A DNA stretch of 34,445 nt from Bacillota bacterium (GTDB taxonomy: Bacteria > Bacillota > Sulfobacillia > JAMDAP01 > JAJYMS01): assembly GCA_041695105.1 (NCBI GenBank), contig JBGFRN010000305.1:1-34445 (forward strand). Reading direction: 5' to 3'. The notes under the pieces are model-generated. The model was not told the DNA's origin and made no database searches. It saw nothing but the letters and a program-made list of their open reading frames with translations. Positions 5,318 to 34,043 of this stretch are shown here, piece by piece. Position numbers and translations under genes: made by a program. The stretch's first letter is position 1. Each line of letters begins with the position of its first letter.

Positions 5318-5341
5318 GGCTCGAGTACCTCCGGAGCATGA

Positions 5342-6322
5342 TTACGCCAGTATTTTCCTCAATTCGCTGGTCAGAACCGGGAGGACGTTCCTGAAGTCGG
5401 CGACGATCCCAATGTTGGCACGCTTGAAGATGTGGGCGTCCGGGTCCTTGTTGATCGCGACCACCGTCTTGGCCCCGGCGATACCAGCCAGGTGTTGGCT
5501 GGCGCCCGAGATCCCTACGGCGATATAGAGATCCGGAGCCACAATGGCCCCGGTCTGCCCGATCTGCCGGTCCGCCGGCAGCCAGCCGGCATCGCAGACG
5601 GCGCGGGAGCCGCCCAGGGAGCCGCCAAGCAGGTCAGCCAGTTCCTGCATTTCCATGAATGGCTTGGGACCGCCCAGACCACGCCCGCCACCGACGATGA
5701 TCCGGGCGTCCTCCAACCGCTTGCCGCTGATGGCCTCCTGAATTTTCTCCACCAGCCTGGTGACGGCATCGGCCTCAGAGACCTGGAAGGTCACGTCCAC
5801 CACTTCGCCGGTGCGGGCCGGGTCGGCTATGGCCGGTTCCTGGCTCTTCAGTCGCACGCCAATCACGCTGCGGGTCCTGGTGGTGGTGTACTCGCCCAGC
5901 GCTTTGCCACCGTAGACCGGCCGGATCCATCGGACGTGGCCGCCACCGGCCTCAAAGCCCACCACCTCGGTAAGGGCCGAGGCGCCGAGACGGTAGGCAA
6001 GCCGCCCGACGAGGTCCTTTCCGGCCAGATCGAAGGGTAGCAAAAAGACGGTGGCATCCGACTGGCGGGCAGCCGCACTCAGGGCGCCGAGGTAGAGGTC
6101 AACCTGATACTCCGCCAGAAGTGGGTTCCGGACGGCCAGCACCCGGGAAGCGCCACAGGCGATCGCTTCAGCGGCAGCCTCCGCGGCGGGGCCGATCAGC
6201 ACCGCTTCCACAGTACCACCGCCGGTGGTGCCGGTCAGGCTGGTGCCCAGAGCAAGGGCCTCCCGAGCGCCGCCACTAAGACGGCCATTCTCACTGGCTG
6301 CATAAACGAGCACGTTCGGCAT
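5342..6322 (-). CDS. etfA: Electron transfer flavoprotein alpha subunit
   Basis: 326 aa. The C-terminal FAD-binding region reads ...IVGGGRGLGG...GGSRAVCDAGW...QIGQTGAIVAPDLYIAVGISGASQHLAGI... It follows etfB. Confidence 0.9.
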   Translation of the reverse strand: MPNVLVYAASENGRLSGGAREALALGTSLTGTTGGGTVEAVLIGPAAEAAAEAIACGASRVLAVRNPLLAEYQVDLYLGALSAAARQSDATVFLLPFDLAGKDLVGRLAYRLGASALTEVVGFEAGGGHVRWIRPVYGGKALGEYTTTRTRSVIGVRLKSQEPAIADPARTGEVVDVTFQVSEADAVTRLVEKIQEAISGKRLEDARIIVGGGRGLGGPKPFMEMQELADLLGGSLGGSRAVCDAGWLPADRQIGQTGAIVAPDLYIAVGISGASQHLAGIAGAKTVVAINKDPDAHIFKRANIGIVADFRNVLPVLTSELRKILA

Positions 6323-6340
6323 GGCTCGTTCTCCTTCCGA

Positions 6341-7135
6341 TTACAGTATCTTGAGTTCTTGCAGGCGGCTGGCCAGGATGGCCGCCTGCGCAGGTCCCTC
6401 ATCGCCAGGCAGGATCTCGCAGGCCACATCGTTTTCGGGAATAAAGGCCCGCTCCAGGCGTGTGCCGGGCTGTAGCCGATCCGGTTCAGCGCCGATGTCG
6501 CCCAAACCCAGCAGTTTGATAGGTTTGCTCTTGGCCAGCATGGCGTCCTTCACCTTGGGGAGCCGGGGAACATTCGCCTCTGAACTGGTGACTGTCAGTA
6601 CCGCTCTCACGGGTACCTGGAGAACTGCATGGCCGTCGCCGGTTTCCCGTGTGGCCCTGACCTGCCCCCCTTCCAGGGCCAGGCGGGAGACCAGGGTTAT
6701 ACAAGGATAGCCCAGCTCCTCAGCCAGGATTGGGCCAACCAGCCCTTCCTCCACATCGCCGGCCTGGCGGCCGGTCAGAATCAGCGCGTCTCCGCCCAGC
6801 GCCTTGATCGCCAAGGCCAGTACGTGGCCGATTACCGCGCCGTCGGCCAAGGCCAGGCGGGGATCCCAAACACGAACGGCGGCGTCCGCCGTGAAGGAGA
6901 GCGCCCGCCGGAGCGCCTCCTCAGCCGGCTTATCTCCCACGGTGATGGCGGTGATCCTCTTGCCGGGAGTTCGTTCCTTGAGTTGAACCGCCATCTCCAG
7001 GGCGTTCTCGGAGTAGGAGTCCATTACCATCCGTGCGTTGCCCTGGACAGGCTGGTTGGTTGCCGGGTCGATCCGGAAGTCCCGGGGAGGGATCTCCGGG
7101 TCGAGTACTTGCTTAACGCAAACGATCACATCCAT
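6341..7135 (-). CDS. etfB: Electron transfer flavoprotein beta subunit
   Basis: 264 aa beginning MDVIVCVKQVLDPEIPPRDFRID... The N-terminus and length are typical of EtfB. Confidence 0.9.
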   Translation of the reverse strand: MDVIVCVKQVLDPEIPPRDFRIDPATNQPVQGNARMVMDSYSENALEMAVQLKERTPGKRITAITVGDKPAEEALRRALSFTADAAVRVWDPRLALADGAVIGHVLALAIKALGGDALILTGRQAGDVEEGLVGPILAEELGYPCITLVSRLALEGGQVRATRETGDGHAVLQVPVRAVLTVTSSEANVPRLPKVKDAMLAKSKPIKLLGLGDIGAEPDRLQPGTRLERAFIPENDVACEILPGDEGPAQAAILASRLQELKIL

Positions 7136-7162
7136 CTGTCTTTGCCCCTTTCGGCACAGTCT

Positions 7163-8668
7163 CTAATCGGCCTCTTCCTCGGTGCCCAACAGGGCAAGGG
7201 AAGCTGCACGCTCACCAGCGATCTTGCCGAGAACGGCGCCCGTGGTCAGGCCCGTGCCTCCTGGGTAATTTTGGTAGAAAAGGCCGCCGACCAGCTCACC
7301 GGCCGCAAAAAGGCCGGGGATGGGGTTGTTCTCCTCATCCAGGACCTGTGATTGGGTATTCACGCGGAGGCCGCCAAAGGTAAATGTTATGCCGCACGTA
7401 ACGGCGAAGCCGTAGTATGGCGGCGTATCGATGGGTAGCGCCCAGTTGGTCTTGTCCACCGCCAGGCGGGCGGTGGACTTACCGTCCTTGACGGACAGGT
7501 CGTAGGGGTTTTCATTAATCGAGGCGTTGAACTCCCTGACGGTCTCCGTAAGACCCTGAGGATCGATGTCAAGCTGCGAGGCCAGTTCTTCAAGCGTGTT
7601 GGAAACCGCCTTGGTGACCTCCCTGATCCGGTACTCGTCCCGGAGCTTCGTGACGACCTTGGAGTCGAAGATCTGCACGGCATAACGGCCGGGCTGCTTC
7701 ATGACCTCCTGACCATACTTGGCGTAGGTATAGTTGCGGAAGTCGGCCCCCTCGTCAAGGAAGCGCTGGCCGTTCCGGTTGACGACGATGCCCAGGGGAT
7801 ATGAGTGCTTCTGGAAGGACTCGCCAACTTTTCGGTCACCGGTGGTCGGGGCGTTCGCATCCCACATGACGGCGTGGCAGCCGCTCCAATGGCCGTACGA
7901 TTGGGCGCCCACCTCCAGAGCCATCCGAATACCGTCACCAGTGTTGAACTCGGTGCCCCGTACCTTGGCAAGATCCCAGCCCGGGCCGAGGTATTGGGCC
8001 CGCAACTGGGGGTTTGATTCAAAGCCGCCCGCCGCCAGGATGACCGCAGGGCACTCAACGTCGACATCCTTACCCGCTCGTTTCACCTTGACCCCGCAGA
8101 TGCGGCCTTCGGCGTTGGTAATCAGCTTGTGGCCGCGGGCGTTGTACCAGATCTCAAGGCCGTGCTTCTGCGCAGACTCGAATAACATTTCGACGAGGCC
8201 GACGCCCCCGCCGACGTACTCCACCGGAACCTCCCCCCAGAACTTGAACTTTTGCCCTGATTTAAAGGCCTGGCGGCCGGTGGATAGCGCGAAGCGGATG
8301 CCCTTCTCGCGCATCCAAACCATGGTAGGGAACGCCTCGGTCACGACGACGCTGGTTAATTCGGGGTCGGCCATGTATTCGGTCACCCGAGCGATGGTTT
8401 CAAAAAACTGCTCCTCGCTGTAGGAGCCCACATCGATCGACTCAATCTCCGCCTCGCTCAGATCCGGGATCAGCTTGAGCACATCCTCGATGCCGTTGTA
8501 GGGAAAGCGGACCAGGCCCCCGGTGAAATATGAGTTTCCCCCGCGCTTCTCCTCCGGGGCCCGTTCCAATACCAGCACCTTCGCCCCTTGCTCCCTGGCC
8601 GCAATTGCAGCGCAGAGAGCGGCGTTGCCCGCACCAACCACCACCAGATCATACCGAAACCTTTCCAT
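7163..8668 (-). CDS. FAD-dependent dehydrogenase of the fumarate reductase/succinate dehydrogenase flavoprotein superfamily, TcuA (tricarballylate dehydrogenase)-like
   Basis: 501 aa. The N-terminus DLVVVGAGNAALCAAIAAREQGAKVLVLERAPEEKRGGNS resembles the TcuA dinucleotide-binding start. The motifs AAGGFESN and ...SGCHAV.WD... and the C-terminal GLFAAGE are also present. GGAGG RBS. Confidence 0.72.
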   Translation of the reverse strand: MERFRYDLVVVGAGNAALCAAIAAREQGAKVLVLERAPEEKRGGNSYFTGGLVRFPYNGIEDVLKLIPDLSEAEIESIDVGSYSEEQFFETIARVTEYMADPELTSVVVTEAFPTMVWMREKGIRFALSTGRQAFKSGQKFKFWGEVPVEYVGGGVGLVEMLFESAQKHGLEIWYNARGHKLITNAEGRICGVKVKRAGKDVDVECPAVILAAGGFESNPQLRAQYLGPGWDLAKVRGTEFNTGDGIRMALEVGAQSYGHWSGCHAVMWDANAPTTGDRKVGESFQKHSYPLGIVVNRNGQRFLDEGADFRNYTYAKYGQEVMKQPGRYAVQIFDSKVVTKLRDEYRIREVTKAVSNTLEELASQLDIDPQGLTETVREFNASINENPYDLSVKDGKSTARLAVDKTNWALPIDTPPYYGFAVTCGITFTFGGLRVNTQSQVLDEENNPIPGLFAAGELVGGLFYQNYPGGTGLTTGAVLGKIAGERAASLALLGTEEEAD

Positions 8669-21804: not shown

Positions 21805-22635
21805 TTAATCAATATTTGGCGAAATATTTATGTCTTCGTTCCGGCGATGGATTGCCTTTTTGATAACCAGACCGGTGCCCACGGCTAGGACCGCTCCCAG
21901 CCCCAGCCATACAACCCTCGGAATTAGCGGGCTCTTGACGTGGAAGGAGACAGTGTGGATCGCGTCCGGATTGAACGGCCGTCCCTGTTTATCGACCAGC
22001 CGGACCGTAACCAAATGGGGACCGGGCTTGACGTCTGAAAAAACAAACGAGGTCATTCCCCCGGAGTATTCGGGCCCTCCGTCCAGTGAATAGCGGACCT
22101 GGCCCTCCAGGCCGGAGAAATTGGCCAGGTGAATCCTGACCGGAACATTGCCGGCTTCGATCGCCGCCCCGTCCTCCGGCTGGTAGATGTGAACCCCTGG
22201 AGCCCTGGTCGGCTTTTTGAGCTCAGCCGCGCCCTGCGGGAGGGTCCGGACGTAGGAAATGGTCAGCCAGATCTCTCGCTCCGGAAGAATCGCGTCGAAC
22301 CCGGGCATTGTCCGGGCGCCCTTGGCCACCCGCCAGTAAAAGAACCCGTCAGGCATGTGATTGATGGCCGCGGCCAGGTCGGGCGGCTTGCTGATTGCCC
22401 CGGTAGGCCCGTCGCCTTTGCCGGTCAGACCGTGGCAGTTCTGACAATGGTTCTGATAAAGGCGTTTGCCCTCGGTCAGAGCCTGTTGGGTAACCTCGAT
22501 CGGGTTTCGCAGGCCGGCGTACTCGGAGGGAATCTGGACATTGTGGGCCAAAACCGGGGTTGGCAATAAAAAAAGAACCCCTAATGACAAAGCCAATCTA
22601 GAGATCAAGAACAGAACCCTGACGATAAATACCAA
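21805..22635 (-). CDS. Membrane-anchored monoheme cytochrome c fused to a beta-sandwich-like domain and a C-terminal TM helix
   Basis: Signal peptide ...PTPVLA/HN. There is a single CQNCH heme c motif with a distal Met region (ARTMPGF). A ~100-aa domain follows (VHIYQPEDG...VRYSLDGG...HLVTVRLVD), then a hydrophobic helix and a basic tail. The start is uncertain: the track GTG at 22671 has no RBS and overlaps the csoR promoter, so I use TTG at 22635. Confidence 0.68.
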   Translation of the reverse strand: MVFIVRVLFLISRLALSLGVLFLLPTPVLAHNVQIPSEYAGLRNPIEVTQQALTEGKRLYQNHCQNCHGLTGKGDGPTGAISKPPDLAAAINHMPDGFFYWRVAKGARTMPGFDAILPEREIWLTISYVRTLPQGAAELKKPTRAPGVHIYQPEDGAAIEAGNVPVRIHLANFSGLEGQVRYSLDGGPEYSGGMTSFVFSDVKPGPHLVTVRLVDKQGRPFNPDAIHTVSFHVKSPLIPRVVWLGLGAVLAVGTGLVIKKAIHRRNEDINISPNID

Positions 22636-22654
22636 CTGCCTTTCTTGCGACCCA

Positions 22655-22684
22655 TTGACATTTTCCTTCACCGGGAAATATTAT
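22655..22684 (+). promoter_or_regulatory. Sigma-A-type promoter of the csoR-ATPase operon (TTGACA-18 nt-TATTAT)
   Basis: TTGACA at 22655-22660 and TATTAT at 22679-22684, 46 nt upstream of the csoR start. Confidence 0.55.
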
Positions 22685-22690
22685 TTAAAC

Positions 22691-22712
22691 ATCCCCCCCA
22701 GGGGGAGGGGAT
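22691..22712. promoter_or_regulatory. GC-tract pseudo-palindrome ATCCCCCCCAGGGGGAGGGGAT, candidate CsoR operator
   Basis: 8 of 11 positions are self-complementary. It lies immediately downstream of the -10 element. Known CsoR operators are C/G-tract inverted repeats of similar form. Confidence 0.5.
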
Positions 22713-22729
22713 AAAGGAGGCGGGAGAAA

Positions 22730-22996
22730 TTGAGCCATCCGCAGAGTCAGGATATTATTAACCGATTAGCCAGGGTTGAGGGACACGTTCGGGCAATTAA
22801 GCAGATGGCCGAGGAAGGCAAGTCATGCGCCGATGTCCTCCATCAAATCGGTGCCGTGCAGGCCGCCCTGCGCAAGGTCGCCCAGCTGGTCTTGGAAGAT
22901 CACCTCGACCACTGCATCACTAAATCGACTCAGGAAGGCCAGGCCCAGGCAATGATCGACGGCCTCAAAACCGCCTTGGCCAGCTACCTGAGGTAG
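22730..22996 (+). CDS. csoR: CsoR/RcnR-family metal-sensing transcriptional repressor (x-C-H-C Cu(I)-type ligand pattern)
   Basis: 88 aa containing NRLARVEGHVRAIKQM..., Cys in KSCADVLHQ, and H-x3-C in EDHLDHC. TTG start with AAAGGAGG RBS. Confidence 0.85.
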   Translation: MSHPQSQDIINRLARVEGHVRAIKQMAEEGKSCADVLHQIGAVQAALRKVAQLVLEDHLDHCITKSTQEGQAQAMIDGLKTALASYLR

Positions 22997-23016
22997 CCGC
23001 GCTGAGGGGTGATATC

Positions 23017-24930
23017 TTGAAACCTATTTCCGATGTAGTGGCTCCCTTAAGGGCCCGCAAGCTCCTGGACATCAGGTGGTACAAGCAGAACTGGACCCTG
23101 GTGTCGACCATCATCTCCGGAATCGCCCTGATCTGGAGCTGGACCGGCTGGTGGCGCGCCTGGCTCCCGGTCGATCCGGCCTGGGTGGCCATTGTCCTGA
23201 GCGGTTTCCCGATCCTCAAACTTGGATTCATGGGCGTTTTCGTTTTCCGGGATCTAAAGGCCGGGGTGCTGGTGAGCATCGCTCTCATTGCCGCCGTCGC
23301 GATCGGCGAGTATTTTGCGGCCGGCGAGGTCGCCTTCATCATGATGGTTGGCGAACTTCTTGAGGTGCATACCGTCCGCCGGGCGCGACAAGCAGTTACC
23401 AAGCTGGTCAGCCTGGTGCCTCAGACCGCCCGTGTTCGCAGGAACGGGGCCGAAGAAGAAATCCCCGTCGCCAGGGTTCGGCCTGGCGACCTGGTACTGG
23501 TCAAGCCCGGTGAACGCATCCCGGTAGACGGCCGGGTCACTTCCGGCCTTTCGGCTGTGGACCAATCGGCGATCACCGGAGAATCCATGCCGGTTGACAA
23601 ACGGCCTGGCGATGAGGCCTTCATCGGGACGCTGAACCAGTTGGGCGTCCTCGAAATCGAAGCCACCCGGGTCGGCGAGGACACTACTCTGGCACGGGTT
23701 GTAAAGCTGGTGGCCGAGGCGGAAAAGAAGAAGGCTCCCGTCCAGCGGCTGGCCGACAAATGGGCTAACTGGCTGGTTCCGGCGAGCTTGATCACCGCAA
23801 TTATCGTTTATCTCTGGACCAAGGACATAGTGCGGGCCGTAACCATCCTGATCGTCTTCTGCCCGTGTGCCCTGGTCCTGGCGACTCCCACGGCCATCGT
23901 GGCCGGAATCGGTCGGGCGGCCAAAAACGGAATCCTGATCAAGAGCGGAGCGGCCCTGGAGGCTGCCGGCCGGGTAGACGCCATCCTCTTTGACAAGACC
24001 GGCACTCTCACCTACGGGCGTCCCCGAGTGGTTGGACTCCTGGCCCTCAGCGGCCGGGAAGAGGATGTTCTCCTGACCGCGGGGGTGGCGGAGAAGTTCT
24101 CCGAGCATCCGGTAGCCCGGGCCATTTTAGCCGAGGCCAACCAGCGAGGCCTGACCCTACCTGACCCTGACGGGTTTGAAGTCTTGCTGGGGCACGGAGT
24201 TTCGGCCTCCAGGGGTGGGAAGAAGCTCCTGGTAGGCAACGCCCGGCTTTTTGCCGGGAAGGGAATCGAGATTCCTGGCGTAATCCAAGCCTGGCTGACC
24301 GCGGCCGAGGATCGCGGCGAAACGGCGCTGGTGGTCTCGGAGGACGAACAGGTACTGGGAGCCATTGGCGTCGCCGATGCTCTGAAAGATGGAGCTGCGG
24401 AGACGGTCAAGACCCTTGGCCGAATGGGCCTCCCCGAACTGGCCATGGCTACCGGTGACAACACCCGTACGGCGGCGGCAGTGGCCGAGGCCGTCGGTAT
24501 TACGGCGGTGTTCGCCGAACAGCTTCCCGGCCAGAAATCGGGGAGCGTGAAAAAGCTGAAAGACAAGGGCCGCCGGGTGGCGATGGTCGGGGACGGGATC
24601 AACGACGCTCCGGCCCTGGCTTCCGCCGATGTCGGCATCGCCATGGGCGTTACCGGAACCGATGTCGCCGTGGAGGCTGCGGACATCGCCCTGATCTCCG
24701 ATGATCTGGCCAAGGTACCGCAGATCTTCGAGCTGGGCCGCCATGTCCTACGGGTTATCAACCAAAACATCATCGCTTCGGCTGTCATTAATGTAGGAGC
24801 GATCATCCTCGCGGCGTACGGGATCATCGGTCCAGTGGCCGGCGCCCTTGTTCACAATGCCGGATCGGTGGCTGTCGTAGCGAATTCAGCCCGGCTGATC
24901 AGGAACAGGAGCGTCCAAACCACCCGATAA
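23017..24930 (+). CDS. Heavy-metal-translocating P1B-type ATPase without an N-terminal metal-binding domain
   Basis: 637 aa. Contains the CPC motif in the transmembrane region (VFCPCALVLATP), the phosphorylation site DKTGTLT, the hinge GDGINDAPAL, and TGES in the actuator domain. No CxxC HMA domain precedes the first helix. Confidence 0.9.
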   Translation: MKPISDVVAPLRARKLLDIRWYKQNWTLVSTIISGIALIWSWTGWWRAWLPVDPAWVAIVLSGFPILKLGFMGVFVFRDLKAGVLVSIALIAAVAIGEYFAAGEVAFIMMVGELLEVHTVRRARQAVTKLVSLVPQTARVRRNGAEEEIPVARVRPGDLVLVKPGERIPVDGRVTSGLSAVDQSAITGESMPVDKRPGDEAFIGTLNQLGVLEIEATRVGEDTTLARVVKLVAEAEKKKAPVQRLADKWANWLVPASLITAIIVYLWTKDIVRAVTILIVFCPCALVLATPTAIVAGIGRAAKNGILIKSGAALEAAGRVDAILFDKTGTLTYGRPRVVGLLALSGREEDVLLTAGVAEKFSEHPVARAILAEANQRGLTLPDPDGFEVLLGHGVSASRGGKKLLVGNARLFAGKGIEIPGVIQAWLTAAEDRGETALVVSEDEQVLGAIGVADALKDGAAETVKTLGRMGLPELAMATGDNTRTAAAVAEAVGITAVFAEQLPGQKSGSVKKLKDKGRRVAMVGDGINDAPALASADVGIAMGVTGTDVAVEAADIALISDDLAKVPQIFELGRHVLRVINQNIIASAVINVGAIILAAYGIIGPVAGALVHNAGSVAVVANSARLIRNRSVQTTR

Positions 24931-25061
24931 ACCTGCCGATTCCCTCCTCCAGCGAAACCTTGGGCTGGTATCCCAGGAGCCTCCGGGCCCTAGTGATACC
25001 GGCCCAGGTCATTTTCAAGCCCCCGGCCAGGCCCCCGGTAGGCCCCCGGTGGCTTACCTAC

Positions 25062-25346
25062 CTACTCCGGTTCGGCCGCGAAGCTTCCCCATTCGTAGCT
25101 CAATTGGTACCGCTTTCCGCAACAGGTGATGATATCGCCGGCCCTGGCGTCGCCGGGCAGCTCGATCAACCGGTCGCAGTTCGGGCAGGAGACTTTCTTA
25201 ACTTCTACGGCGACCAACTGGCCGCCCCGCTCCTCGAGCCGGAGCGTCAGGCCGGCACAGTTCTCGCAATCAAACTGATAGCCGTGCCCGGCCTCGGCCG
25301 GAATCTCTACGTCGAGAAGACATCCCGGGCAGTGGACGGTCTTCAT
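25062..25346 (-). CDS. Tandem zinc-ribbon protein (two LysW-like Cys4 ribbons), function unknown
   Basis: 94 aa. The Cys motifs are CPGC...CENC and CPNC...CCG. Its ATG lies 4 nt after the upstream stop, with a GGAGGT RBS inside the end of the upstream gene, which suggests translational coupling. Confidence 0.6.
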   Translation of the reverse strand: MKTVHCPGCLLDVEIPAEAGHGYQFDCENCAGLTLRLEERGGQLVAVEVKKVSCPNCDRLIELPGDARAGDIITCCGKRYQLSYEWGSFAAEPE

Positions 25347-25349
25347 GGG

Positions 25350-25604
25350 CTAGACCTCCCATCCGGCCAGGTTGAGGAGACGCTCGACCTTGCCCCGGTC
25401 AAAGCCCCGGATCAACTCACCGTTGATCTCAATCACCGGCGTCGCCCGCAGGCCGGTCTTGGCCACAAAGGCCTCCATGGCCTCCGGGCTGGCCGACACG
25501 TCAACGGCTTCGTAAGCAATTCCCTTAGACGAAAGAAACTCTTTCGCCACCCGGCAGGCCGCTCAGGTCGGGGTGTAGTAGACGACAACTTTCGGATCAG
25601 CCAT
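25350..25604 (-). CDS. Glutaredoxin-like (NrdH/YruB-type) thioredoxin-fold protein with an in-frame TGA at the first redox Cys: selenocysteine-protein candidate (U-x-x-C)
   Basis: ATG at 25604 with GGGAGGA RBS. The sequence reads MADPKVVVYYTPT-TGA(25565-25563)-AACRVAKEFLSSKGIAYEAVDV...PVIEINGELIRGFD. It aligns by eye with the Grx pattern VVIYT.P.CP.C..AK.fL...gi.ye..dv. The track shows only the post-TGA half (25350-25550). Confidence 0.62.
25530..25546 (-). other. Stem-loop 16 nt downstream of the in-frame UGA (bacterial SECIS-like)
   Basis: The mRNA reads CGAAAGA-GUU-UCUUUCG, and the stem can be extended by flanking G-C/G-U pairs. The apical loop contains G and U, and its position is compatible with bacterial SECIS spacing. 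Confidence 0.4.
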
Positions 25605-25695
25605 GGTATCCTCCCTTATCCTTCAACCCCGTAGCCCAGCGCCTTAAACGCCTATGGTGACGGCCAGTCCCGTCGAAAGCCATAGAAGGGTCTGG

Positions 25696-26088
25696 TTAGA
25701 GTGCCGGACGTTCCCCGCTTGGACTTAAACCCCCTTGACCCATTCTGGTGCAGGCCCGGATAACCTCAGCGTTATCAGCCACCAGCGATTGGGCCAGGCT
25801 GATCAAATCCTTCACCCTCGGGTCGGCCACGCGGTAGTAAACATGTTTCCCCTGACCGCGCGAGGTCACATAACCGCACCATTTCAAGCAGGCCAGTTGG
25901 TTTGATATCTGTCCCTGGGACATCCCGACTGCCTCGATCAACTGCCCGACGTTCATCTCCCCGCGTTCCAGGAGGAGCTCGATGATCCTCAGTCGACTAG
26001 GGTTGGCCAGGCCTTGGAAGAACTTGGCCCGGAGATCGTACTGGCGCTCAATAAATTCCTCGGATCTTGGTACGAGATCACTAGACAT
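25696..26088 (-). CDS. ArsR/SmtB-family metalloregulator with a C-x3-C in the recognition helix plus a C-terminal Cys (CmtR-like pattern)
   Basis: 130 aa. The winged-helix core is LANPSRLRIIELLLERGEMNVGQLIEAVGMSQGQISNQLACLKWCGYV. The cysteines are C67, C71 and C113. Confidence 0.86.
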   Translation of the reverse strand: MSSDLVPRSEEFIERQYDLRAKFFQGLANPSRLRIIELLLERGEMNVGQLIEAVGMSQGQISNQLACLKWCGYVTSRGQGKHVYYRVADPRVKDLISLAQSLVADNAEVIRACTRMGQGGLSPSGERPAL

Positions 26089-26114
26089 AACTGGCTCACA
26101 CTCACTCCAAAATC

Positions 26115-26134
26115 ATATTCAAATTTTTAAATAT
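26115..26134. promoter_or_regulatory. AT-rich imperfect palindrome ATATTCAAATTTTTAAATAT, candidate ArsR-type operator
   Basis: 16 of 20 positions are self-complementary. It sits between the -10 element and the arsR start codon. Confidence 0.4.
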
Positions 26135-26142
26135 GTAGACCT

Positions 26143-26171
26143 AATATACCAGCCTGCCCAAACTGTGTCAA
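26143..26171 (-). promoter_or_regulatory. Near-consensus promoter of the arsR-grx-zinc-ribbon operon (TTGACA-17 nt-TATATT with upstream TG)
   Basis: On the minus strand, TTGACA is at 26171-26166 and TATATT at 26148-26143. The spacer is 17 nt. Confidence 0.6.
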
Positions 26172-26268
26172 GAATCAAAAAATACTCTGCCTTTGCTCGT
26201 CAAGATTAGTAATGTTCAGATATCCAGCGGTAGTTGAGAGCAGTGGGTAAGAGTAGTTGGGTTGCACT

Positions 26269-26320
26269 CACTCAAATTTTTAACGATAAATCACAGGTGA
26301 TTGCATTAAAATTTTGAGTG
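26269..26320. repeat. Inverted repeat element 1: CACTCAAATTTTTAA-N22-TTAAAATTTTGAGTG, with an inner ATCAC-ag-GTGAT palindrome
   Basis: The 15-nt arms have one mismatch. Read directly from the sequence. Confidence 0.8.
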
Positions 26321-26439
26321 AAAATTTCCTATCGGGGGTCAAATTTACCCCCCGAGGTATTCAATCTCACCCCCTGGGGTATAAAAACCTGAGTTTTTGA
26401 CCTGGTCCGCCGGTTTTTGTGAACCCAGCCGGAGCCTCA

Positions 26440-26486
26440 CGCAATATTTTAACGCCCAGAGCCTGGTTTGCCATTAAAATATTGCG
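26440..26486. repeat. Inverted repeat element 2: CGCAATATTTTAA-N21-TTAAAATATTGCG, with an inner CCAG-agc-CTGG palindrome
   Basis: The 13-nt arms match perfectly. It shares the core ATTTTAACG...CATTAAAAT with element 1. Confidence 0.8.
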
Positions 26487-26532
26487 CGAGAGCCTGCCGG
26501 GTGCCCGCGTCGGGTTGACCCCAACAACAACC

Positions 26533-30938
<4,406 letters not shown>

Positions 30939-31122: not shown

Positions 31123-31671
31123 GTGAGAAACAAGGCTTTTCTCTTCATGTTGCTCCTGGTCATGGGAACCCAGGCGCTCTGGCTCTCCTCCTGCGCTCCC
31201 AAGGCCCCGGTTCAGGACCCACCCAAAAATCAGCCCGCCCCGGTCACCCCGGTGCCTGGCCGGGTGGATATGACCGAACGGGTCACCCTTTACTTCGGAA
31301 ACCCCAACGCCACCGGGGTCGTTCCGGTCAGGCGACCCAAGCCGGCAGAAGCCGAGATGATCCCGTATTTGGTCGAGCAGCTCAAGGACGGCCAAGGCTT
31401 GGGAGGGATTGTTCCGCGGGAGGCCAGGCTGCTCTCCTACCGCCGCGAGGGCGACCTGCTGGTGCTGGATTTCTCACGCGAATTCCAGACCAAAGCCCCC
31501 GGAGGAACCGCCGGGGAGTCGATCATGATCGCCGGGATAGCCAACACCTTTACCGAGTTGCCCTACGTCAAACGGGTGCTGATCCTGGTTGAGGGCAAGC
31601 CCCTGGAGACGGGGCACAACATTTACGACGAGCCGCTGCGGCGAAACGAGGGAAGGATCATCAGGGAGTAA
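31123..31671 (+). CDS. GerMN-domain lipoprotein (GerM-like sporulation/germination protein)
   Basis: 182 aa. It has a signal peptide with lipobox LSSC and a Pro-rich linker. The domain VTLYFGNPNA...LLVLDFS...ANTFTELPYVKRVLILVEG is typical of GerMN. Confidence 0.72.
   Translation: MRNKAFLFMLLLVMGTQALWLSSCAPKAPVQDPPKNQPAPVTPVPGRVDMTERVTLYFGNPNATGVVPVRRPKPAEAEMIPYLVEQLKDGQGLGGIVPREARLLSYRREGDLLVLDFSREFQTKAPGGTAGESIMIAGIANTFTELPYVKRVLILVEGKPLETGHNIYDEPLRRNEGRIIRE
31261..31671 (+). repeat. Direct repeat copy A (3' 411 nt of the GerMN gene)
   Basis: It aligns without gaps to 33000-33410 (offset 1739). I count 32 substitutions. Confidence 0.9.
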
Positions 31672-32088: not shown

Positions 32089-32184
32089 ATGGTTGAGCTC
32101 ACTGTCACAGTCAAGGTGGCCGCGGCGGTGGTCATCCCGATTGTCGGCATCGTTGTCGTCAATCTGCTGAGAAAAAAGAGATGA
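32089..32184 (+). CDS. 31-aa hydrophobic peptide with a basic tail (MVELTVTVKVAAAVVIPIVGIVVVNLLRKKR): type I toxin candidate
   Basis: ATG is preceded by GAGGGGGTGG. It has one predicted TM helix plus an RKKR C-terminus. The SD sequence can pair with ACCCCCTC at 32029-32036. The ORF is below the length cut-off of the ORF track. Confidence 0.45.
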   Translation: MVELTVTVKVAAAVVIPIVGIVVVNLLRKKR

Positions 32185-32210
32185 CGGGCCTCTACCAAAG
32201 GCCCGTCATC
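32180..32210 (-). terminator. 11-bp stem hairpin with a T-run on the minus strand only
   Basis: gatgacgggcc-tctaccaaa-ggcccgtcatc. The minus-strand 3' flank is TCTTTTTTCTC, and the plus-strand 3' flank has no T-run. Confidence 0.5.
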
Positions 32211-32255
32211 GCGTGAAGGTCTACCATTAGCGCCCGGAACTTGCACGGCCCAGGG

Positions 32256-32291
32256 AAGACGCCTGTTCGCAGCAGGCGTCTTTCTGTTTTT
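32256..32291 (+). terminator. Rho-independent terminator (plus strand) for the small-ORF transcript
   Basis: aagacgcctg-ttcgcag-caggcgtctt followed by TCTGTTTTT. Confidence 0.6.
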
Positions 32292-32316
32292 AAGCCGTCA
32301 AGCTTTATCGCATTTG

Positions 32317-32343
32317 TATGACACGAGTCATACTCGTGTCATA
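32317..32343. repeat. Perfect 12-3-12 palindrome TATGACACGAGT-cat-ACTCGTGTCATA
   Basis: Read directly from the sequence. It lies at the predicted start of the antisense transcript. Confidence 0.85.
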
Positions 32344-32987
32344 CTCAATTTAGCATGGTTGAATGCAACCAGTCAATGTCTTGTCAAGGCCGATAAGCTT
32401 ATTCGATATTTACCCCATAAGCCAATTATTTATTCTAGGGCCTGGGGCAGACACCCTTCCTGGGAGGTGAGGTGTTTCAAGTGAACCACTTTCCAGCCGT
32501 CGCCCGAGATCTTTTAGACAAGTCCACAGGGAGCCGCGGTACGATTCGGGCAGGCTGGCAACAGCCTTCGGGCAGGGCATACCTCCTCGCCGGGTTGCAC
32601 CACGCGGTTTCGGGACTACCGAAACGGAAGGGTGCATAGGTCGAGTTCAAGATTTCTGTGAAGGTGGCCACCGCAACGGCCATTATGATCGCAACTGCTG
32701 TTCAGTATCTCTTGCGGCCAAAAGATAGCAGGCCCTTAGTGTGGAGTCTCAATTCCCGTGAATTCCATTCTCTGCCCGTTGCACTGTTCCTCAAAGGTGC
32801 CTGTTCGCGCACCAAGCGTTTTGGTCATGTCCCGGGAAGTGGTGTAAATTCGGTGGACCCTCTATCACTAACCAGCTCGGGGACACCGTCTGGATGAACA
32901 TCGACCCGAACGTCGGCGTCATCACCCGCCTGGCCAAGCCGCTCGGCTCGGCGGTGGACTACCTACGACTTCCTCAACCGGCTCAAG

Positions 32988-33410
32988 ATGGCCGCCTTCC
33001 GGGTGGATGTGACCGAACGGGTCACCCTTTACTTCGGAAACCCCAACGCCACCGGGGTCGTTCCGGTCAGGCGACCCAAGCCGGCGGCAGCCGAGATGAT
33101 CCCGTATTTGGTCGAGCAGCTCAAGGACGGCCAAGGCTTGGGATGGATTGTTCCCAAGGAGGCCCGGCTCATCTCTTACCGCCGGGAGGGCGATCTTCTG
33201 GTACTGGATTTCTCGCGTGAATTCCAGACCAAAGCCCCCGGAGGAACCGCCGGGGAGTCGATCATGATCGCCGGCATAGCCAACACCTTTACCGAGTTGC
33301 CATACGTCAAACGGGTGCTGATCCTGGTTGAGGGCAAGCCGCTGGAAACCGGGCATAACATTTACGATGAGCCACTGCGGCGCAATGAGGGACGGATTAT
33401 CAAAGAATAA
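32988..33410 (+). pseudogene. 5'-truncated second copy of the GerMN domain gene (no signal peptide, no RBS)
   Basis: The 140-aa ORF differs from residues 47-182 of the upstream copy at 6 positions. Homology starts abruptly near 32994-33000. No SD sequence precedes the ATG. Confidence 0.6.
33000..33410 (+). repeat. Direct repeat copy B
   Basis: See copy A (31261-31671). Confidence 0.9.
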
Positions 33411-33522: not shown

Positions 33523-33759
33523 TCACGCCGGTCCGATCACGACCCTCCAGCGGTTAGCCATAAGCCATGAACGCGCCACGGGCGCCCCGACCCTGACCAG
33601 AATCAGTGCGTAAATTTCGGCCACCAAGAAGTTGGTCAGCATGGGTTCAAAACCAGCCTCTTGGATCATCTTCATAGCGGCTTTGGCCGCCAGATGATTC
33701 CTGGCCCCCCGGTTGAGGTATTCATAGAGGCCGCTGGTATCCACCAGGACCACTTTCAC
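33523..33759 (-). pseudogene. PIN-domain (VapC-like) toxin, C-terminally truncated
   Basis: 78 aa beginning VVLVDTSGL..., which carries the first PIN acidic residue. It ends after ~60% of a normal PIN domain, before the distal conserved Asp residues. Its GTG overlaps the antitoxin stop (GTGA). Confidence 0.6.
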
Positions 33760-34043
33760 CGTTTGCTATCCTCCCCAAGTGGTTCTTCGGCTGAATGTTC
33801 GCGGATCAGATAAGCGTCGTGACTGACTCCAACATCCGAGGCATCGTTAATCACGCCGGCCAAATCCCAGATGGGATCATCCTGGCCGAGAGCCTTAAAC
33901 GGCTCAACCTTCTTAAGTACGATTTCTTCCCCGTTAAGAAATATGGCCAGGTGGGCTCCTTTATTTAGCTTGAGCTTTTCCCGTATCGGCTTGGGCAGAG
34001 TCATCTGTCCTTTGCTGGTCAGCTTGATAATCTCGTATGACAT
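33756..34043 (-). CDS. AbrB/SpoVT-domain antitoxin (VapB/MazE-like)
   Basis: 95 aa. The N-terminus KLTSKGQMTLPKPIREKLKLNKGAHL matches a SpoVT-AbrB swapped hairpin. It has an acidic C-terminus and overlaps the PIN gene by 4 nt. Confidence 0.75.
   Translation of the reverse strand: MSYEIIKLTSKGQMTLPKPIREKLKLNKGAHLAIFLNGEEIVLKKVEPFKALGQDDPIWDLAGVINDASDVGVSHDAYLIREHSAEEPLGEDSKR

What the first reader, a model, noticed from the sequence alone, without database searches (positions are those of the whole stretch)
25350..25604. Glutaredoxin-like gene split by a TGA exactly at the first redox cysteine: selenocysteine candidate with a downstream hairpin
The ORF track reports only MAKEFLSSKG... (25350-25550). 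Reading upstream in the same frame gives a strong RBS and ATG (25604), then MADPKVVVYYTPT, then TGA, then AACRVAKEFL.... This reconstitutes the Grx/NrdH-type beta1-active-site-alpha1 pattern (..VVIYT.P.C..C..AK.FL), with TGA in place of the first Cys of CxxC.

Sixteen nt after the UGA, the mRNA can form CGAAAGA-GUU-UCUUUCG, which can be extended by flanking pairs. Its position and G/U-containing loop are compatible with a bacterial SECIS element. Sec-containing Grx/Trx-like proteins are known in some anaerobes. An automated pipeline would either miss this gene or call it truncated.
Basis: partly seen in the sequence, partly recalled or inferred. Interest (0 to 1): 0.66.

Follow-up and report, generated by a model that had tools for sequence, protein, structure and literature searches.

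The report
Selenocysteine glutaredoxin in a metal operon
The "broken" small redox-protein gene is almost certainly intact: its internal TGA very likely encodes selenocysteine, directed by a conserved RNA hairpin. This is a known kind of selenoprotein, sitting here in a heavy-metal resistance gene module that annotation pipelines routinely mis-call.

Summary
On the minus strand, 25604-25350 encodes an 84-residue glutaredoxin-fold protein (Pfam PF00462, E = 4e-16). A TGA at 25565-25563 replaces the first Cys of the CxxC active site. A 9-bp hairpin with a GUU loop lies at 25548-25528.

The hairpin alone is not rare in this window. The case rests on comparison:
- 21 loci (15 distinct sequences) from at least two phyla keep the TGA at this codon. 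Their proteins have diverged to about 48% identity.
- The upstream peptide evolves like coding sequence.
- The 21-nt hairpin varies at only 3 positions.
- 80 Cys-containing homologues have no comparable hairpin. This includes those that encode the same AKEFLSS peptide.
- The hairpin meets all four published bacterial SECIS constraints.

In close relatives the adjacent zinc-ribbon gene also carries TGA at a Cys position. One carrier has a curated UxxU selenoprotein in the same operon.

The gene sits in a ~4-kb accessory module (ArsR regulator, Sec-Grx, zinc-ribbon protein, P1B-ATPase) that a collinear relative lacks.

Sec-glutaredoxins are already known, so this is a new member of a known kind. 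The Sec machinery could not be checked because the window is a lone contig.

The parts
25350..25604 (-). Full coding sequence of the selenocysteine glutaredoxin-like protein: 84 residues, M-A-D-P-K-V-V-V-Y-Y-T-P-T-U-A-A-C-R-V-A-K-E-F-L-S-S...G-W-E-V, stop TAG at 25352-25350.
   Evidence: Translation. PF00462 59.4 bits and TIGR02196 77.2 bits with C at the stop. Orthologues in L001-L005, L015, L020, L024, L025, L046, L047, L095, L096-100 and L105.
25563..25565 (-). In-frame TGA, the proposed Sec codon. It is the first residue of the U-x-x-C active site.
   Evidence: Aligned with the first Cys of CxxC in 80 homologous loci. TGA is invariant in 15 distinct orthologous sequences.
25528..25548 (-). 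Proposed bacterial SECIS hairpin GGCGAAAGA-GUU-UCUUUCGUC: 9-bp stem, 3-nt loop. The stem starts 14 nt after the UGA and the loop 23 nt after it.
   Evidence: Folds at -9.2 kcal/mol. Only nt 1, 2 and 12 of 21 vary among 15 distinct Sec forms. None of 6 degenerate codons shows a synonymous change, against 28 of 34 elsewhere in the gene. The hairpin is absent or weakened in all 80 Cys forms.
25610..25616 (-). Shine-Dalgarno sequence AGGGAGG, 5 nt before the ATG at 25604.
   Evidence: Read directly. GGAGG-type motifs sit at the same place in L001-L005. No such motif precedes the GTG at 25550.
25062..25346 (-). Partner gene: a 94-aa tandem LysW-like zinc-ribbon protein (CPGC...CENC / CPNC...CC, C-terminal YEWGSFAAEPE). 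It starts 3 nt after the Grx stop. In the window it is the Cys form (TGT).
   Evidence: NF041070 52.3 bits, below the cutoff of 75. In L001, L002 and L004 the codon for the second Cys of CENC is TGA, followed by a hairpin. The Grx/zinc-ribbon adjacency is also seen in L105 and implied by the mis-called fusions P0261, P0295 and P0319.
25696..26088 (-). ArsR/SmtB-family metalloregulator, first gene of the operon, with a C-x3-C (LACLKWCG) plus C-terminal Cys (RACTRMG) arrangement.
   Evidence: NF033788 87.4 bits against a cutoff of 55; second-best hit is CmtR. Orthologues 75-78% identical lie upstream of the Sec-Grx in L001, L003 and L004, with all three Cys conserved.
26143..26171 (-). Sigma-70-like promoter: TTGACA, 17-nt spacer, TG-TATATT (11 of 12 matches).
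   Evidence: Consensus scan only: 3 sites found against 0.7 expected. It lies in a 44.6% GC intergenic stretch.
26114..26135 (-). Perfect 9-bp inverted repeat CATATTTAA-AAAT-TTGAATATG between the promoter and the arsR start. Candidate ArsR operator (inference).
   Evidence: Hairpin/palindrome listing. The operator role is inferred from its position and from general knowledge of ArsR/SmtB operators. It was not tested.
23017..24930 (+). Convergent heavy-metal P1B-type ATPase with a CPC transmembrane motif and no N-terminal HMA domain.
   Evidence: TIGR01525 587 bits against a cutoff of 346, and TIGR01512 (Cd family) 476 bits against 313.5.
22461..26598 (.). Accessory module of about 4.1 kb (P1B-ATPase plus the arsR/Sec-grx/zinc-ribbon operon) between the cytochrome c gene and ligA. 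A collinear relative lacks it.
   Evidence: L101 (LigA 74% identical) aligns to window 30908-26599 and 22460-15978. Only ~680 nt lie between those blocks in L101.

Best explanation
Window 25604-25350 (minus strand) is one intact gene for an 84-residue glutaredoxin-fold thiol/selenol oxidoreductase. Its active site is U-A-A-C.

Proposed mechanism: the UGA at 25565-25563 is decoded as selenocysteine by SelB and Sec-tRNA(Sec). SelB is recruited by the coding-region hairpin GGCGAAAGA-GUU-UCUUUCGUC (25548-25528), which acts as the bacterial SECIS. Without selenium or SelB, translation would stop after 13 residues.

Context: the gene is the second cistron of an operon made of an ArsR/CmtR-like regulator, the Sec-Grx and a zinc-ribbon protein. 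That operon is convergent with a P1B metal-efflux ATPase. Together they form a ~4-kb accessory module.

The most likely role (inferred, about 0.5-0.6 confidence) is a selenol-based redoxin or metal-handling partner of the co-translated LysW-like zinc-ribbon protein, working in the response to thiophilic metals (Hg/Cd/Pb type).

Shown here: the anatomy, the conservation, the Cys/Sec correspondence and the link between hairpin and UGA. Inferred: actual Sec insertion, SelB binding and the metal-related role.
For: (1) Family and site. PF00462 E = 4e-16. The stop aligns with the first Cys of CxxC in P0006 and P0007 and in 80 genomic loci.

(2) Conserved UGA. 21 loci, 15 distinct sequences, keep TGA. 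They fall into four sub-clades: U-A-[AS]-C, U-[GVMT]-P-C, U-T-P-C and U-Q-S-C. Carriers include Rokubacteria MAGs and Bacillota-like contigs.

(3) The upstream region is translated. An ATG plus SD is conserved. All 9 third-codon positions in the 9 codons before the TGA vary, while V-Y-x-T-P-T is kept.

(4) RNA-level constraint. Within the gene, 28 of 34 invariant-residue codons show synonymous variation. None of the 6 in the hairpin does. Only 3 of 21 hairpin nt vary across 15 sequences. The change at nt 2 is G.U to A-U, which keeps the pair.

(5) Coupling to UGA. The homologous 21 nt fold at -7.6 to -9.8 kcal/mol in all 18 scored TGA loci. In 80 Cys loci the mean is -2.2, the best is -7.3, and none reaches -7.5. 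Cys loci that encode the identical AKEFLSS peptide use TTC, or AAG plus CTG. Those codons mismatch the stem (-6.9 and -5.5 kcal/mol).

(6) All four bSECIS constraints in PMC13188914 are met. The loop is 3 nt (allowed 3-9). The stem is 9 bp (allowed 4-16). The loop starts G-U. The UGA-to-loop distance is 23 nt (allowed 16-37). The energy is -9.2 kcal/mol (threshold -7.5).

(7) The standard genetic code applies. TGA ends 8 of 27 window genes.

(8) Independent signs of Sec decoding in carriers. The neighbouring zinc-ribbon gene has TGA at a Cys position in L001, L002 and L004, with its own hairpin. L105 has an NF041115 UxxU selenoprotein above cutoff, with two TGAs, in the same operon.

(9) Host lineages are known Sec users. 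The window's LigA is closest to anaerobic Bacillota. Clostridia are among the richest in selenoproteins, and a Methylomirabilota MAG holds the current record (PMC13188914).

(10) Metal context. ArsR is above cutoff with CmtR-like Cys residues. MerF lies upstream in L003 and L004 at 85.7 bits against a cutoff of 50. L105 has MerT-, MerB- and MerP-like neighbours. The window has a P1B-ATPase in an accessory module.
Against: No selA, selB, selC or selD was seen, in the window or in any Sec-form locus. The window is a lone contig, so the machinery is untested.

The stem is essentially invariant. There is no double compensatory covariation. The structural case rests on synonymous-site invariance and on the link with UGA.

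A 9-bp hairpin by itself is common in this window.

The KE[FY]LSS peptide also occurs in many Cys forms. Part of the nucleotide conservation therefore reflects protein constraint.

In the window the partner zinc-ribbon gene has Cys (TGT) where relatives have TGA. That is compatible with a lineage moving away from Sec.

The protein scores below NCBIfam's curated cutoffs for every specific Grx subfamily.

The metal-related function is inferred from neighbours only. It does not hold for the Rokubacteria-type loci (GalT / Sec-Grx / TPR-BatA context) or for L005 (Crp / DedA context).
Confidence: 0.88

Rival explanations
1. Pseudogene or sequencing/assembly error. A nonsense mutation or a miscalled base split an ordinary CxxC glutaredoxin, and only a truncated inactive fragment, or nothing, is made.
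For: Gene callers report only a 66-aa fragment. No Sec machinery is visible in the window.
Against: The same TGA is present in 15 distinct sequences from independent assemblies and different phyla. The start, SD and frame upstream are intact, and substitutions there are biased to third positions. A pseudogene would not keep a hairpin free of synonymous change.
Confidence: 0.02
2. The locus is a genuine Sec gene by descent, but this organism has recently lost Sec decoding. The window's copy would then be a fresh relic that terminates at UGA.
For: The machinery is unverified. The adjacent zinc-ribbon gene is Cys (TGT) in the window but TGA in its closest relatives. That could mark a lineage replacing Sec. 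The module is accessory and probably mobile, so it could have landed in a host that cannot decode Sec.
Against: The TGA, SECIS, SD and whole ORF are undamaged. The hairpin is identical to that of all other carriers. The Bacillota relatives suggested by LigA are typical Sec users.
Confidence: 0.05
3. UGA is recoded to something other than Sec. One route is Cys insertion by a tRNA(Sec)-like tRNA(Cys) with a SelB-like factor, as proposed for some anaerobes (recalled from the literature, not checked here). Another is near-cognate Trp read-through stimulated by the hairpin.
For: The sequence data show only that UGA is read through in a hairpin-dependent way. They cannot tell which residue is inserted.
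Against: The position is the nucleophilic Cys of a redox motif, the classic Sec site. The hairpin fits the SelB-type SECIS model. L105 carries a curated UxxU selenoprotein family member. Trp at this site would abolish activity. TGA is a normal stop elsewhere in the window.
Confidence: 0.03
4. Leader peptide plus re-initiation. The 13-codon ORF (25604-25563) would be a regulatory upstream ORF. The real product would be the 66-aa protein starting at GTG 25550, and the hairpin would be an attenuator or coupling element.
For: A GTG or ATG lies 4-5 codons after the TGA in several clades, and gene callers use it.
Against: The 'leader' aligns residue for residue with strand beta-1 and the T-P-T-C active-site turn of full-length homologues. 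The 66-aa product would lack beta-1 and the nucleophile. No SD precedes the GTG, and that GTG lies partly within the hairpin (its last base is stem nt 1). The start after the TGA is not conserved: GTG at codon 19 in the window clade, ATG directly after the TGA in L096, none in L015.
Confidence: 0.02

Closest known systems
Selenoprotein glutaredoxin (Grx, PF00462, UxxC). Listed as an experimentally verified bacterial selenoprotein family in PMC13188914 (Clostridium sp. OhILAs / C. oremlandii Grx, Kim et al. 2011; I link PDB 4tr0/4tr1 to the review's structure reference 109 from memory). Ten UXXC Grx genes were reported in the Sargasso Sea selenoproteome (PMC1088965).
   Same: Same Pfam family. 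Sec replaces the first Cys of the N-terminal CxxC. The SECIS is a small coding-region hairpin just downstream, with G in the apical loop. Cys-containing homologues are widespread.
   Different: Only distantly related in sequence to the characterised Clostridium protein (4tr0, E = 1.8e-7). This protein belongs to the YruB/NrdH-like branch, not to the classical GSH-binding Grx3-like branch. The genomic context differs: a metal-resistance module with a zinc-ribbon partner, not MsrA reduction. Whether it uses glutathione is unknown.
YruB-family glutaredoxin-like proteins (TIGR02196) and NrdH-redoxins (TIGR02194; PDB 1r7h, 4fiw; also 7c10 and 3zij)
   Same: Best NCBIfam and PDB matches. About 75-85 residues, a T-P-T-C-x-x-C start and a [GV]FD[RK] motif near the C-terminus. 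74 of the 80 best genomic homologues are Cys forms of this type.
   Different: Scores are below the curated cutoffs: 77.2 against 88.55 for YruB, and 53.8 against 85.75 for NrdH. The site carries Sec instead of Cys. There is no nrdEF or rubredoxin context.
Selenoproteins of mercury/organometal systems: the UxxU metal-binding MerP-like protein (NF041115), the putative mercuric transport selenoprotein, the thioredoxin-like SaoT (NF040730) and the Sec-containing P-type ATPase (all in Table 1 of PMC13188914)
   Same: Sec sits in a small thiol-redox or metal-binding motif, inside operons with MerT/MerF/MerP/MerB-like genes and ArsR-type regulators. In L105 the Sec-Grx is in the same operon as an NF041115 member.
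   Different: The Grx matches none of these models. NF040730 does not appear in the scan. The window's own P1B-ATPase and zinc-ribbon protein are Cys forms.
UXX-star glutaredoxin-like selenoproteins (NF041212, NF041114, NF041211)
   Same: Glutaredoxin fold, with weak hits of 28-47 bits.
   Different: In those families Sec lies three residues from the C-terminus. Here it is residue 14, in the canonical active site. All scores are below cutoff.

Membership tests
Bacterial selenoprotein gene (Sec-UGA plus bSECIS) | An in-frame UGA aligned with Cys in homologues | tested here: met
   The TGA at 25565-25563 aligns with the first Cys of CxxC in P0006 and P0007 and in 80 genomic/metagenomic loci.
Bacterial selenoprotein gene (Sec-UGA plus bSECIS) | UGA conserved among orthologues, with coding-type conservation on both sides | tested here: met
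   15 distinct sequences keep TGA. Upstream, 9 of 9 third positions vary while the V-Y-x-T-P-T peptide is kept. ATG plus SD is conserved.
Bacterial selenoprotein gene (Sec-UGA plus bSECIS) | bSECIS model (PMC13188914): 3-9 nt apical loop and 4-16 bp upper stem | tested here: met
   3-nt loop, 9-bp stem.
Bacterial selenoprotein gene (Sec-UGA plus bSECIS) | bSECIS model: G in one of the first two loop positions, typically G[G|U] | tested here: met
   The loop is GUU. In L005 it is GUA.
Bacterial selenoprotein gene (Sec-UGA plus bSECIS) | bSECIS model: 16-37 nt between UGA and the apical loop; MFE at or below -7.5 kcal/mol | tested here: met
   23 nt and -9.2 kcal/mol. All 18 scored Sec loci are at or below -7.6. 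None of 80 Cys loci reaches -7.5.
Bacterial selenoprotein gene (Sec-UGA plus bSECIS) | Base-pair covariation that supports the hairpin | tested here: inconclusive
   The stem is almost invariant. There is one G.U to A-U change at pair 2, one A.C at pair 1 (L047) and no double compensatory change. Support comes from synonymous-site invariance and from decay of the hairpin in Cys forms.
Bacterial selenoprotein gene (Sec-UGA plus bSECIS) | selA, selB, selC (tRNA-Sec) and selD in the same genome | not testable with these tools
   The window is a complete 34,445-nt metagenome contig. It has no tRNA, no Rfam hit and no sel gene among its annotated ORFs. Indirect evidence only: second TGA/Cys genes in L001, L002, L004 and L105, and selD next to a Cys-form homologue in L092.
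Bacterial selenoprotein gene (Sec-UGA plus bSECIS) | Selenium physically present in the protein | not testable with these tools
   Needs 75Se labelling or mass spectrometry.
Glutaredoxin superfamily (Pfam PF00462) | Score above the Pfam gathering threshold over the whole domain | tested here: met
   59.4 bits against 22.9, residues 6-65 matching model positions 1-60 of 60. PDB relatives 7c10, 3zij and 1r7h.
Glutaredoxin superfamily (Pfam PF00462) | Glutathione dependence (GSH-binding residues or activity) | not tested
   The closest relatives are YruB/NrdH-like proteins, and many of those use thioredoxin reductase instead of GSH (general knowledge). No analysis was done here.
YruB-family glutaredoxin-like protein (TIGR02196) | Score at or above the curated cutoff of 88.55 bits | tested here: not met
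   77.2 bits. It is the closest named subfamily, but the protein is not filed as a member.
NrdH-redoxin (TIGR02194) | Score at or above the curated cutoff of 85.75 bits; nrdEF context | tested here: not met
   53.8 bits. No ribonucleotide reductase genes in the window.
UXX-star glutaredoxin-like selenoproteins (NF041212 and relatives) | Sec three residues before the C-terminus; score above cutoff | tested here: not met
   Sec is residue 14 of 84. Scores of 28-47 bits fall below cutoffs of 66-100.
Thioredoxin-like selenoprotein SaoT (NF040730) | A match to the NCBIfam model | tested here: not met
   Not among the hits at E <= 0.01.

The most novel reading that the evidence does not exclude
The Sec-Grx and the translationally coupled LysW-like tandem zinc-ribbon protein may form a previously undescribed two-component selenol/thiol module for handling Hg/Cd-type metals.

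The zinc-ribbon partner, which reads C-x-x-U in L001, L002 and L004, would then be a new selenoprotein family. It matches no NCBIfam selenoprotein model, is not in the 2026 family table and was not found in the literature search.

The Grx cassette also carries an almost invariant 19-nt SECIS across phyla. That suggests a horizontally mobile, SelB-compatible selenoprotein cassette.
Probability: 0.35. Interest if true: 0.6.

Novelty: new member of a known kind. Interest (0 to 1): 0.4.

Why it matters
For annotation: this is a clean, checkable case of a selenoprotein gene that public pipelines mis-call. In this family I saw three kinds of error: calls truncated at the TGA, calls restarted after it, and calls translated with Trp under genetic code 4. 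A simple signature recovers the whole clade: T-P-T-TGA-x-x-TGY, then 8 nt, then [GA][GA]CGAAAGAGT[TA]TCTTTCGTC.

For biology: it places a Sec-containing redoxin inside an accessory heavy-metal module. It also shows that its nearest relatives pair it with a second TGA-containing gene, for a small zinc-ribbon protein that no curated selenoprotein family covers. Selenols bind Hg and Cd far more tightly than thiols. A Sec-redoxin/zinc-ribbon pair in mer-like operons is therefore a testable lead on how anaerobes handle thiophilic metals.

The near-identity of the SECIS across phyla is a useful natural experiment on SelB-SECIS compatibility and on horizontal spread of selenoprotein genes.

Tried and rejected
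(1) Sec machinery in the window. No tRNA. No Rfam family at gathering score, and only noise in E-value mode. No sel genes among the annotated ORFs.

(2) A naive scan for other TGA-joined ORFs in the window gave 225 candidates in this 61% GC contig and was uninformative. The most striking one, 31869-31021, translates to nonsense.

(3) The metagenome contigs DNA-pattern scan for V-Y-x-T-P-T-TGA-A-x-C-R found one chance hit, L009, which is not a Grx.

(4) tRNA scans of 12 related loci found nothing.

(5) Looking for a second selenoprotein in L005 and L001 failed. L005's UXX-star-like Grx ends in TAA. L001's CopZ-N-terminal-like protein has GRCC, the Cys form.

(6) I first thought KEFLSS was specific to Sec forms. 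The profile search showed many CxxC forms with KE[FY]LSS. I replaced that idea with the codon-level control.

I used the single job on the zinc-ribbon partner instead.

(8) The 'Rokubacteria + selenocysteine' literature search returned nothing relevant.

(9) Covariation analysis and covariance-model building were not attempted, because the stem does not vary.

(10) Structure prediction was skipped. Pfam and PDB sequence matches already fix the fold.
Full report
1. THE OBSERVATION

Read on the minus strand, the window has AGGGAGG (25616-25610), a 5-nt spacer and an ATG at 25604. The frame then reads MADPKVVVYYTPT, TGA (25565-25563), and AACRVAKEFLSSKGIAYEAVDVSASPEAMEAFVAKTGLRATPVIEINGELIRGFDRGKVERLLNLAGWEV, ending at TAG (25352-25350).

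The mechanical ORF list contains only the 66-codon piece that starts at GTG 25550. With Cys in place of the stop, the 84-residue protein covers the whole Pfam Glutaredoxin domain: 59.4 bits against a cutoff of 22.9. Its best NCBIfam hit is the YruB family at 77.2 bits, below the cutoff of 88.55. NrdH is next. The closest solved structures are small Grx/NrdH-like redoxins (7c10, 3zij, 1r7h). The Clostridium oremlandii Grx (4tr0) is a more distant hit at E = 1.8e-7.

Fourteen nt after the TGA the mRNA forms GGCGAAAGA-GUU-UCUUUCGUC (25548-25528). This is a 9-bp stem with a 3-nt loop, at -9.2 kcal/mol.

2. IS IT MORE THAN CHANCE?

The hairpin on its own is not. About 50 distinct hairpins of 9 bp or more occur on this strand of the window. 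The 71-nt region folds no better than shuffles (z = -1.1). The evidence has to come from comparison, and it does.

3. CLOSE ORTHOLOGUES

The nearest database proteins (P0002-P0005, 73-79% identical) are all called as 63-68-residue fragments. Their DNA (L001-L004) shows the same architecture: SD, ATG, 12 sense codons, TGA, A-S-C-R-V-A-K-E-F-L-S-S. L005-L007 are the same contig from three sequencing runs and sit in a different gene context. They also have TGA. Their hairpin differs only in the middle loop base, GUA.

A codon table of the six sequences gives the following.
- Upstream of the TGA, changes are mostly synonymous (K5, V8, Y9, T11, P12, T13).
- Across the gene, 28 of 34 codons with an invariant residue show synonymous variation.
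- Of the six degenerate codons that spell the hairpin (A20, K21, E22, L24, S25, S26), none does.

4. DISTANT ORTHOLOGUES AND Cys HOMOLOGUES

A scan of species-representative genomes returned 80 loci at 41-54% identity. Most come from Anaerolineae/Chloroflexota, Bipolaricaulota, Rokubacteria and CPR/DPANN MAGs.
- 74 have Cys at the site (CPHC, CSFC, CPYC, CPWC and others).
- 6 have a stop there: L015, L024, L046 and L047 from Rokubacteria MAGs, plus L020 and L025. All six stops are TGA, followed by the same hairpin.

A profile search found more truncated calls (MPCKLAKEFLSS...) and proteins with W at the site. The DNA shows that both types have TGA. L096-L100 read MKRVAVYSTPT-TGA-MPCK. L095 and L105 have TGA that a gene caller translated as W, presumably under genetic code 4.

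In total, 21 loci (15 distinct sequences) carry TGA plus the hairpin.
- 21 of the 27 nt upstream vary, including 9 of 9 third positions.
- 9 of the 12 nt after the TGA vary.
- Only nt 1, 2 and 12 of the 21 hairpin nt vary.
- Nt 2 switches G.U to A-U, which keeps the pair.

5. THE CONTROL THAT MATTERS

The KE[FY]LSS peptide is not confined to Sec forms. Many CxxC proteins have it. Protein constraint could therefore explain some of the nucleotide conservation.

I folded the homologous 21 nt in every locus.
- The 18 scored TGA loci give -7.6 to -9.8 kcal/mol.
- The 80 Cys loci average -2.2 kcal/mol. The best is -7.3, and none reaches the -7.5 threshold.

The Cys loci that encode the identical AKEFLSS peptide use different codons. 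L090 and L091 have TTC in place of TTT, which makes the loop-closing pair A.C (-6.9 kcal/mol). L092-L094 have AAG and CTG, which puts an A.G mismatch in mid-stem (-5.5 kcal/mol). So the hairpin is maintained only where the UGA is present. That is the behaviour expected of a SECIS.

6. COMPARISON WITH THE PUBLISHED bSECIS MODEL

The 2026 review PMC13188914 gives these constraints:
- an apical loop of 3-9 nt and an upper stem of 4-16 bp;
- G in the first two loop positions, usually G[G|U];
- 16-37 nt from the UGA to the loop;
- MFE at or below -7.5 kcal/mol.

This element has 3 nt, 9 bp, a GUU loop, 23 nt and -9.2 kcal/mol. All four are met. No double compensatory covariation is available, because the stem does not vary. 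I record that test as inconclusive, not as support.

7. ALTERNATIVES

A reassigned genetic code is excluded. TGA terminates 8 of 27 window genes, and only this gene has an internal TGA.

A pseudogene or a sequencing error cannot explain 15 independent sequences with an intact frame and SD.

A leader peptide with re-initiation is unlikely. The 13 residues align with strand beta-1 and the active-site turn of full-length homologues. The restart codon is not conserved between clades.

Two alternatives cannot be excluded from sequence alone:
- this particular host has recently lost Sec decoding;
- UGA is recoded to a residue other than Sec.

8. INDEPENDENT SIGNS OF Sec DECODING IN CARRIERS

The Sec machinery itself could not be examined. 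The window is an entire 34,445-nt metagenome contig. It has no tRNA and no sel genes. The related loci have no tRNA-Sec either. Three indirect lines help.

(a) In L001, L002 and L004 the next gene, a zinc-ribbon protein, also has an in-frame TGA. It falls exactly where the window's copy has the second Cys of C-E-N-C (FDCEN-TGA-AGLTLRL against FDCENCAGLTLRL). A 6-bp GC-rich hairpin follows 10 nt after the TGA. Its 7-nt loop starts 16 nt after the TGA and begins with G in every sequence; the element folds at -11.5 kcal/mol.

(b) In L105 the Sec-Grx and zinc-ribbon pair sits between a MerB-like gene, whose frame runs through a TGA, and MerT-like and MerP-like genes. The MerP-like gene reads GMT-TGA-GT-TGA-P. 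It scores 107.9 bits on NF041115, 'UxxU metal-binding (seleno)protein', against a cutoff of 95.

(c) The window's LigA is closest to anaerobic Bacillota: Desulfofundulus, Pelotomaculum, Thermacetogenium and Calderihabitans at 56-63% identity. The review names Clostridia among the most selenoprotein-rich bacteria. It also reports a Methylomirabilota MAG with 63 predicted selenoprotein genes. That GTDB places Rokubacteria in that phylum is my own knowledge.

A Cys-form homologue (L092) lies divergent from selD, which scores 518 bits against a cutoff of 299.

9. GENOMIC CONTEXT AND LIKELY FUNCTION

In the window the gene is the second cistron of an operon.
- A strong sigma-70-like promoter: TTGACA, 17-nt spacer, TG-TATATT (26171-26143).
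- A perfect 9-bp inverted repeat at 26135-26114. I infer it is an operator.
- arsR at 26088-25696: NF033788 87.4 bits against 55, with CmtR as the next-best model.
- The Sec-Grx.
- Three nt later, a 94-residue tandem LysW-like zinc-ribbon protein at 25346-25062.

A P1B heavy-metal ATPase converges on the operon (23017-24930; TIGR01525 587 bits).

A collinear relative, L101 (LigA 74% identical), aligns on both sides but has ~680 nt where the window has ~4.1 kb. The four genes therefore form an accessory module at about 22461-26598.

The ArsR orthologues are 75-78% identical and keep the C-x3-C and C-terminal Cys. That arrangement recalls the Cd/Pb sensor CmtR, from my own knowledge. They precede the Sec-Grx in L001, L003 and L004. 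Between ArsR and the Grx lies either MerF (85.7 bits against 50) or a CopZ-N-terminal-like Fe-S protein.

The Grx/zinc-ribbon adjacency recurs in L105. It is also implied by the mis-called fusion proteins P0261, P0295 and P0319.

My best inference, at about 0.5-0.6 confidence, is that the Sec-Grx is a selenol-based redoxin or metal-handling partner of the zinc-ribbon protein, acting in the response to thiophilic metals.

This is not universal for the clade. The Rokubacteria-type loci place the gene alone between a GalT-like gene and a TPR/BatA cluster next to the isc operon. L005 places it between a Crp regulator and a DedA-family protein.

10. WHAT IS KNOWN, AND NOVELTY

Sec-containing glutaredoxin (PF00462, UxxC) is an established bacterial selenoprotein family. 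It was predicted in the Sargasso Sea data (10 genes, PMC1088965). It has been characterised biochemically in Clostridium sp. OhILAs (cited in PMC13188914).

The present gene belongs to the YruB/NrdH-like branch and is only distantly related to the characterised protein. It is a new member of a known kind.

Three things are less ordinary:
- the near-identity of a 19-nt SECIS core across proteins that have diverged to about 48% identity in different phyla;
- the accessory, metal-linked context;
- the zinc-ribbon partner, which is itself a TGA/Cys-variable protein.

The partner belongs to a small family: 77 representative clusters out of 1.84 billion proteins. It matches no NCBIfam selenoprotein model. 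It is absent from the review's family table and from the literature search.

11. VERDICT

- Confidence that this is a functional Sec-encoding glutaredoxin-like gene with a coding-region SECIS: about 0.88.
- Interest is moderate (0.4). The main finding is a textbook-type selenoprotein. It has practical annotation value, and it opens a side lead on the zinc-ribbon partner that may be new.

Noticed in passing
window 25062-25346 (-); L001 1781-2065, L002 870-1154, L004 988-1272: The zinc-ribbon gene just downstream of the Grx has TGA in L001, L002 and L004 where the window has the second Cys (TGT) of its C-E-N-C motif. A conserved hairpin follows: 6-bp stem, 7-nt loop starting with G, the loop beginning 16 nt after the UGA. 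It matches no NCBIfam selenoprotein model, so it may be an undescribed C-x-x-U selenoprotein family. P0316 (29 aa) is another call truncated at this site.
   Followed up: partly
L105 1-2173: A mer-like operon with several in-frame TGAs. In order: a MerB-like gene (…DSL-TGA-TTINFF…), the Sec-Grx (U-Q-S-C), a zinc-ribbon gene (Cys form, ATGA start/stop overlap), a MerT-like membrane protein (LCCLLP) and a MerP-like protein reading GMT-TGA-GT-TGA-P. The last scores above the cutoff for NF041115.
   Followed up: partly
L092 511-1563 (-) and 2001-2240 (+): A Cys-form homologue (CGPC…AKEFLSS) is transcribed divergently from a bona fide selD (518 bits). This hints at a link between this Grx subfamily and selenium metabolism. 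It is seen in one organism only (three near-identical contigs).
   Followed up: partly
window 22461-26598 versus L101 5508-6189: The P1B-ATPase plus the arsR/Sec-grx/zinc-ribbon operon is an accessory insertion, or a deletion in the relative, between ligA and a cytochrome c gene. The junction at 26089-26532 is only 44.6% GC.
   Followed up: yes
P0013, P0014, P0017, P0069, P0085 (L095, L105 checked): Public gene calls show Trp at the Sec position. In the two cases I checked the DNA has TGA, so the contigs were presumably translated under genetic code 4. This annotation artefact hides selenoproteins.
   Followed up: yes
P0047 (…STLQSCH…) and P0124 (…STGQSCY…AAREFLSS): Two members of the U-Q-S-C clade show Leu or Gly at the Sec position. 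P0124 also has R in place of K in the hairpin-encoding peptide. They could be real losses of Sec or further translation artefacts. Their DNA was not examined because the look-ups were exhausted.
   Followed up: no
window 31123-31671 (+) and 32988-33410 (+); 31260-31559 / 32999-33298: Two paralogous genes for lipoprotein-like proteins (…TERVTLYFGNPNATGVVPVRR…LVLDFSREF…) share a 300-nt direct repeat at 94% identity, 1739 nt apart.
   Followed up: no
window 32180-32344: Three long perfect palindromes about 70 nt apart: 32180-32210 (14-bp stem), 32253-32285 (15 bp) and 32316-32344 (13 bp). They lie in a ~1.3-kb stretch without convincing ORFs, between the two paralogues. Their nature is unknown.
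   Followed up: no
window 33523-34043 (-): A MazE/AbrB-type antitoxin gene (33756-34043; PF04014, E = 2e-9) overlaps by 4 nt a 78-aa ORF (33523-33759; MKVVLVDTSGLYEYL…) that looks like the N-terminal part of a PIN-domain toxin. This is probably a toxin-antitoxin pair, with the toxin possibly truncated.
   Followed up: no
window 3263-8668 (-): An HdrD/GlpC-like CCG plus 4Fe-4S protein, the alpha and beta subunits of electron-transfer flavoprotein, and an FAD-binding oxidoreductase form a cluster. This is typical of anaerobic electron-bifurcating or acyl-CoA-linked systems. None of these genes has an internal TGA.
   Followed up: no
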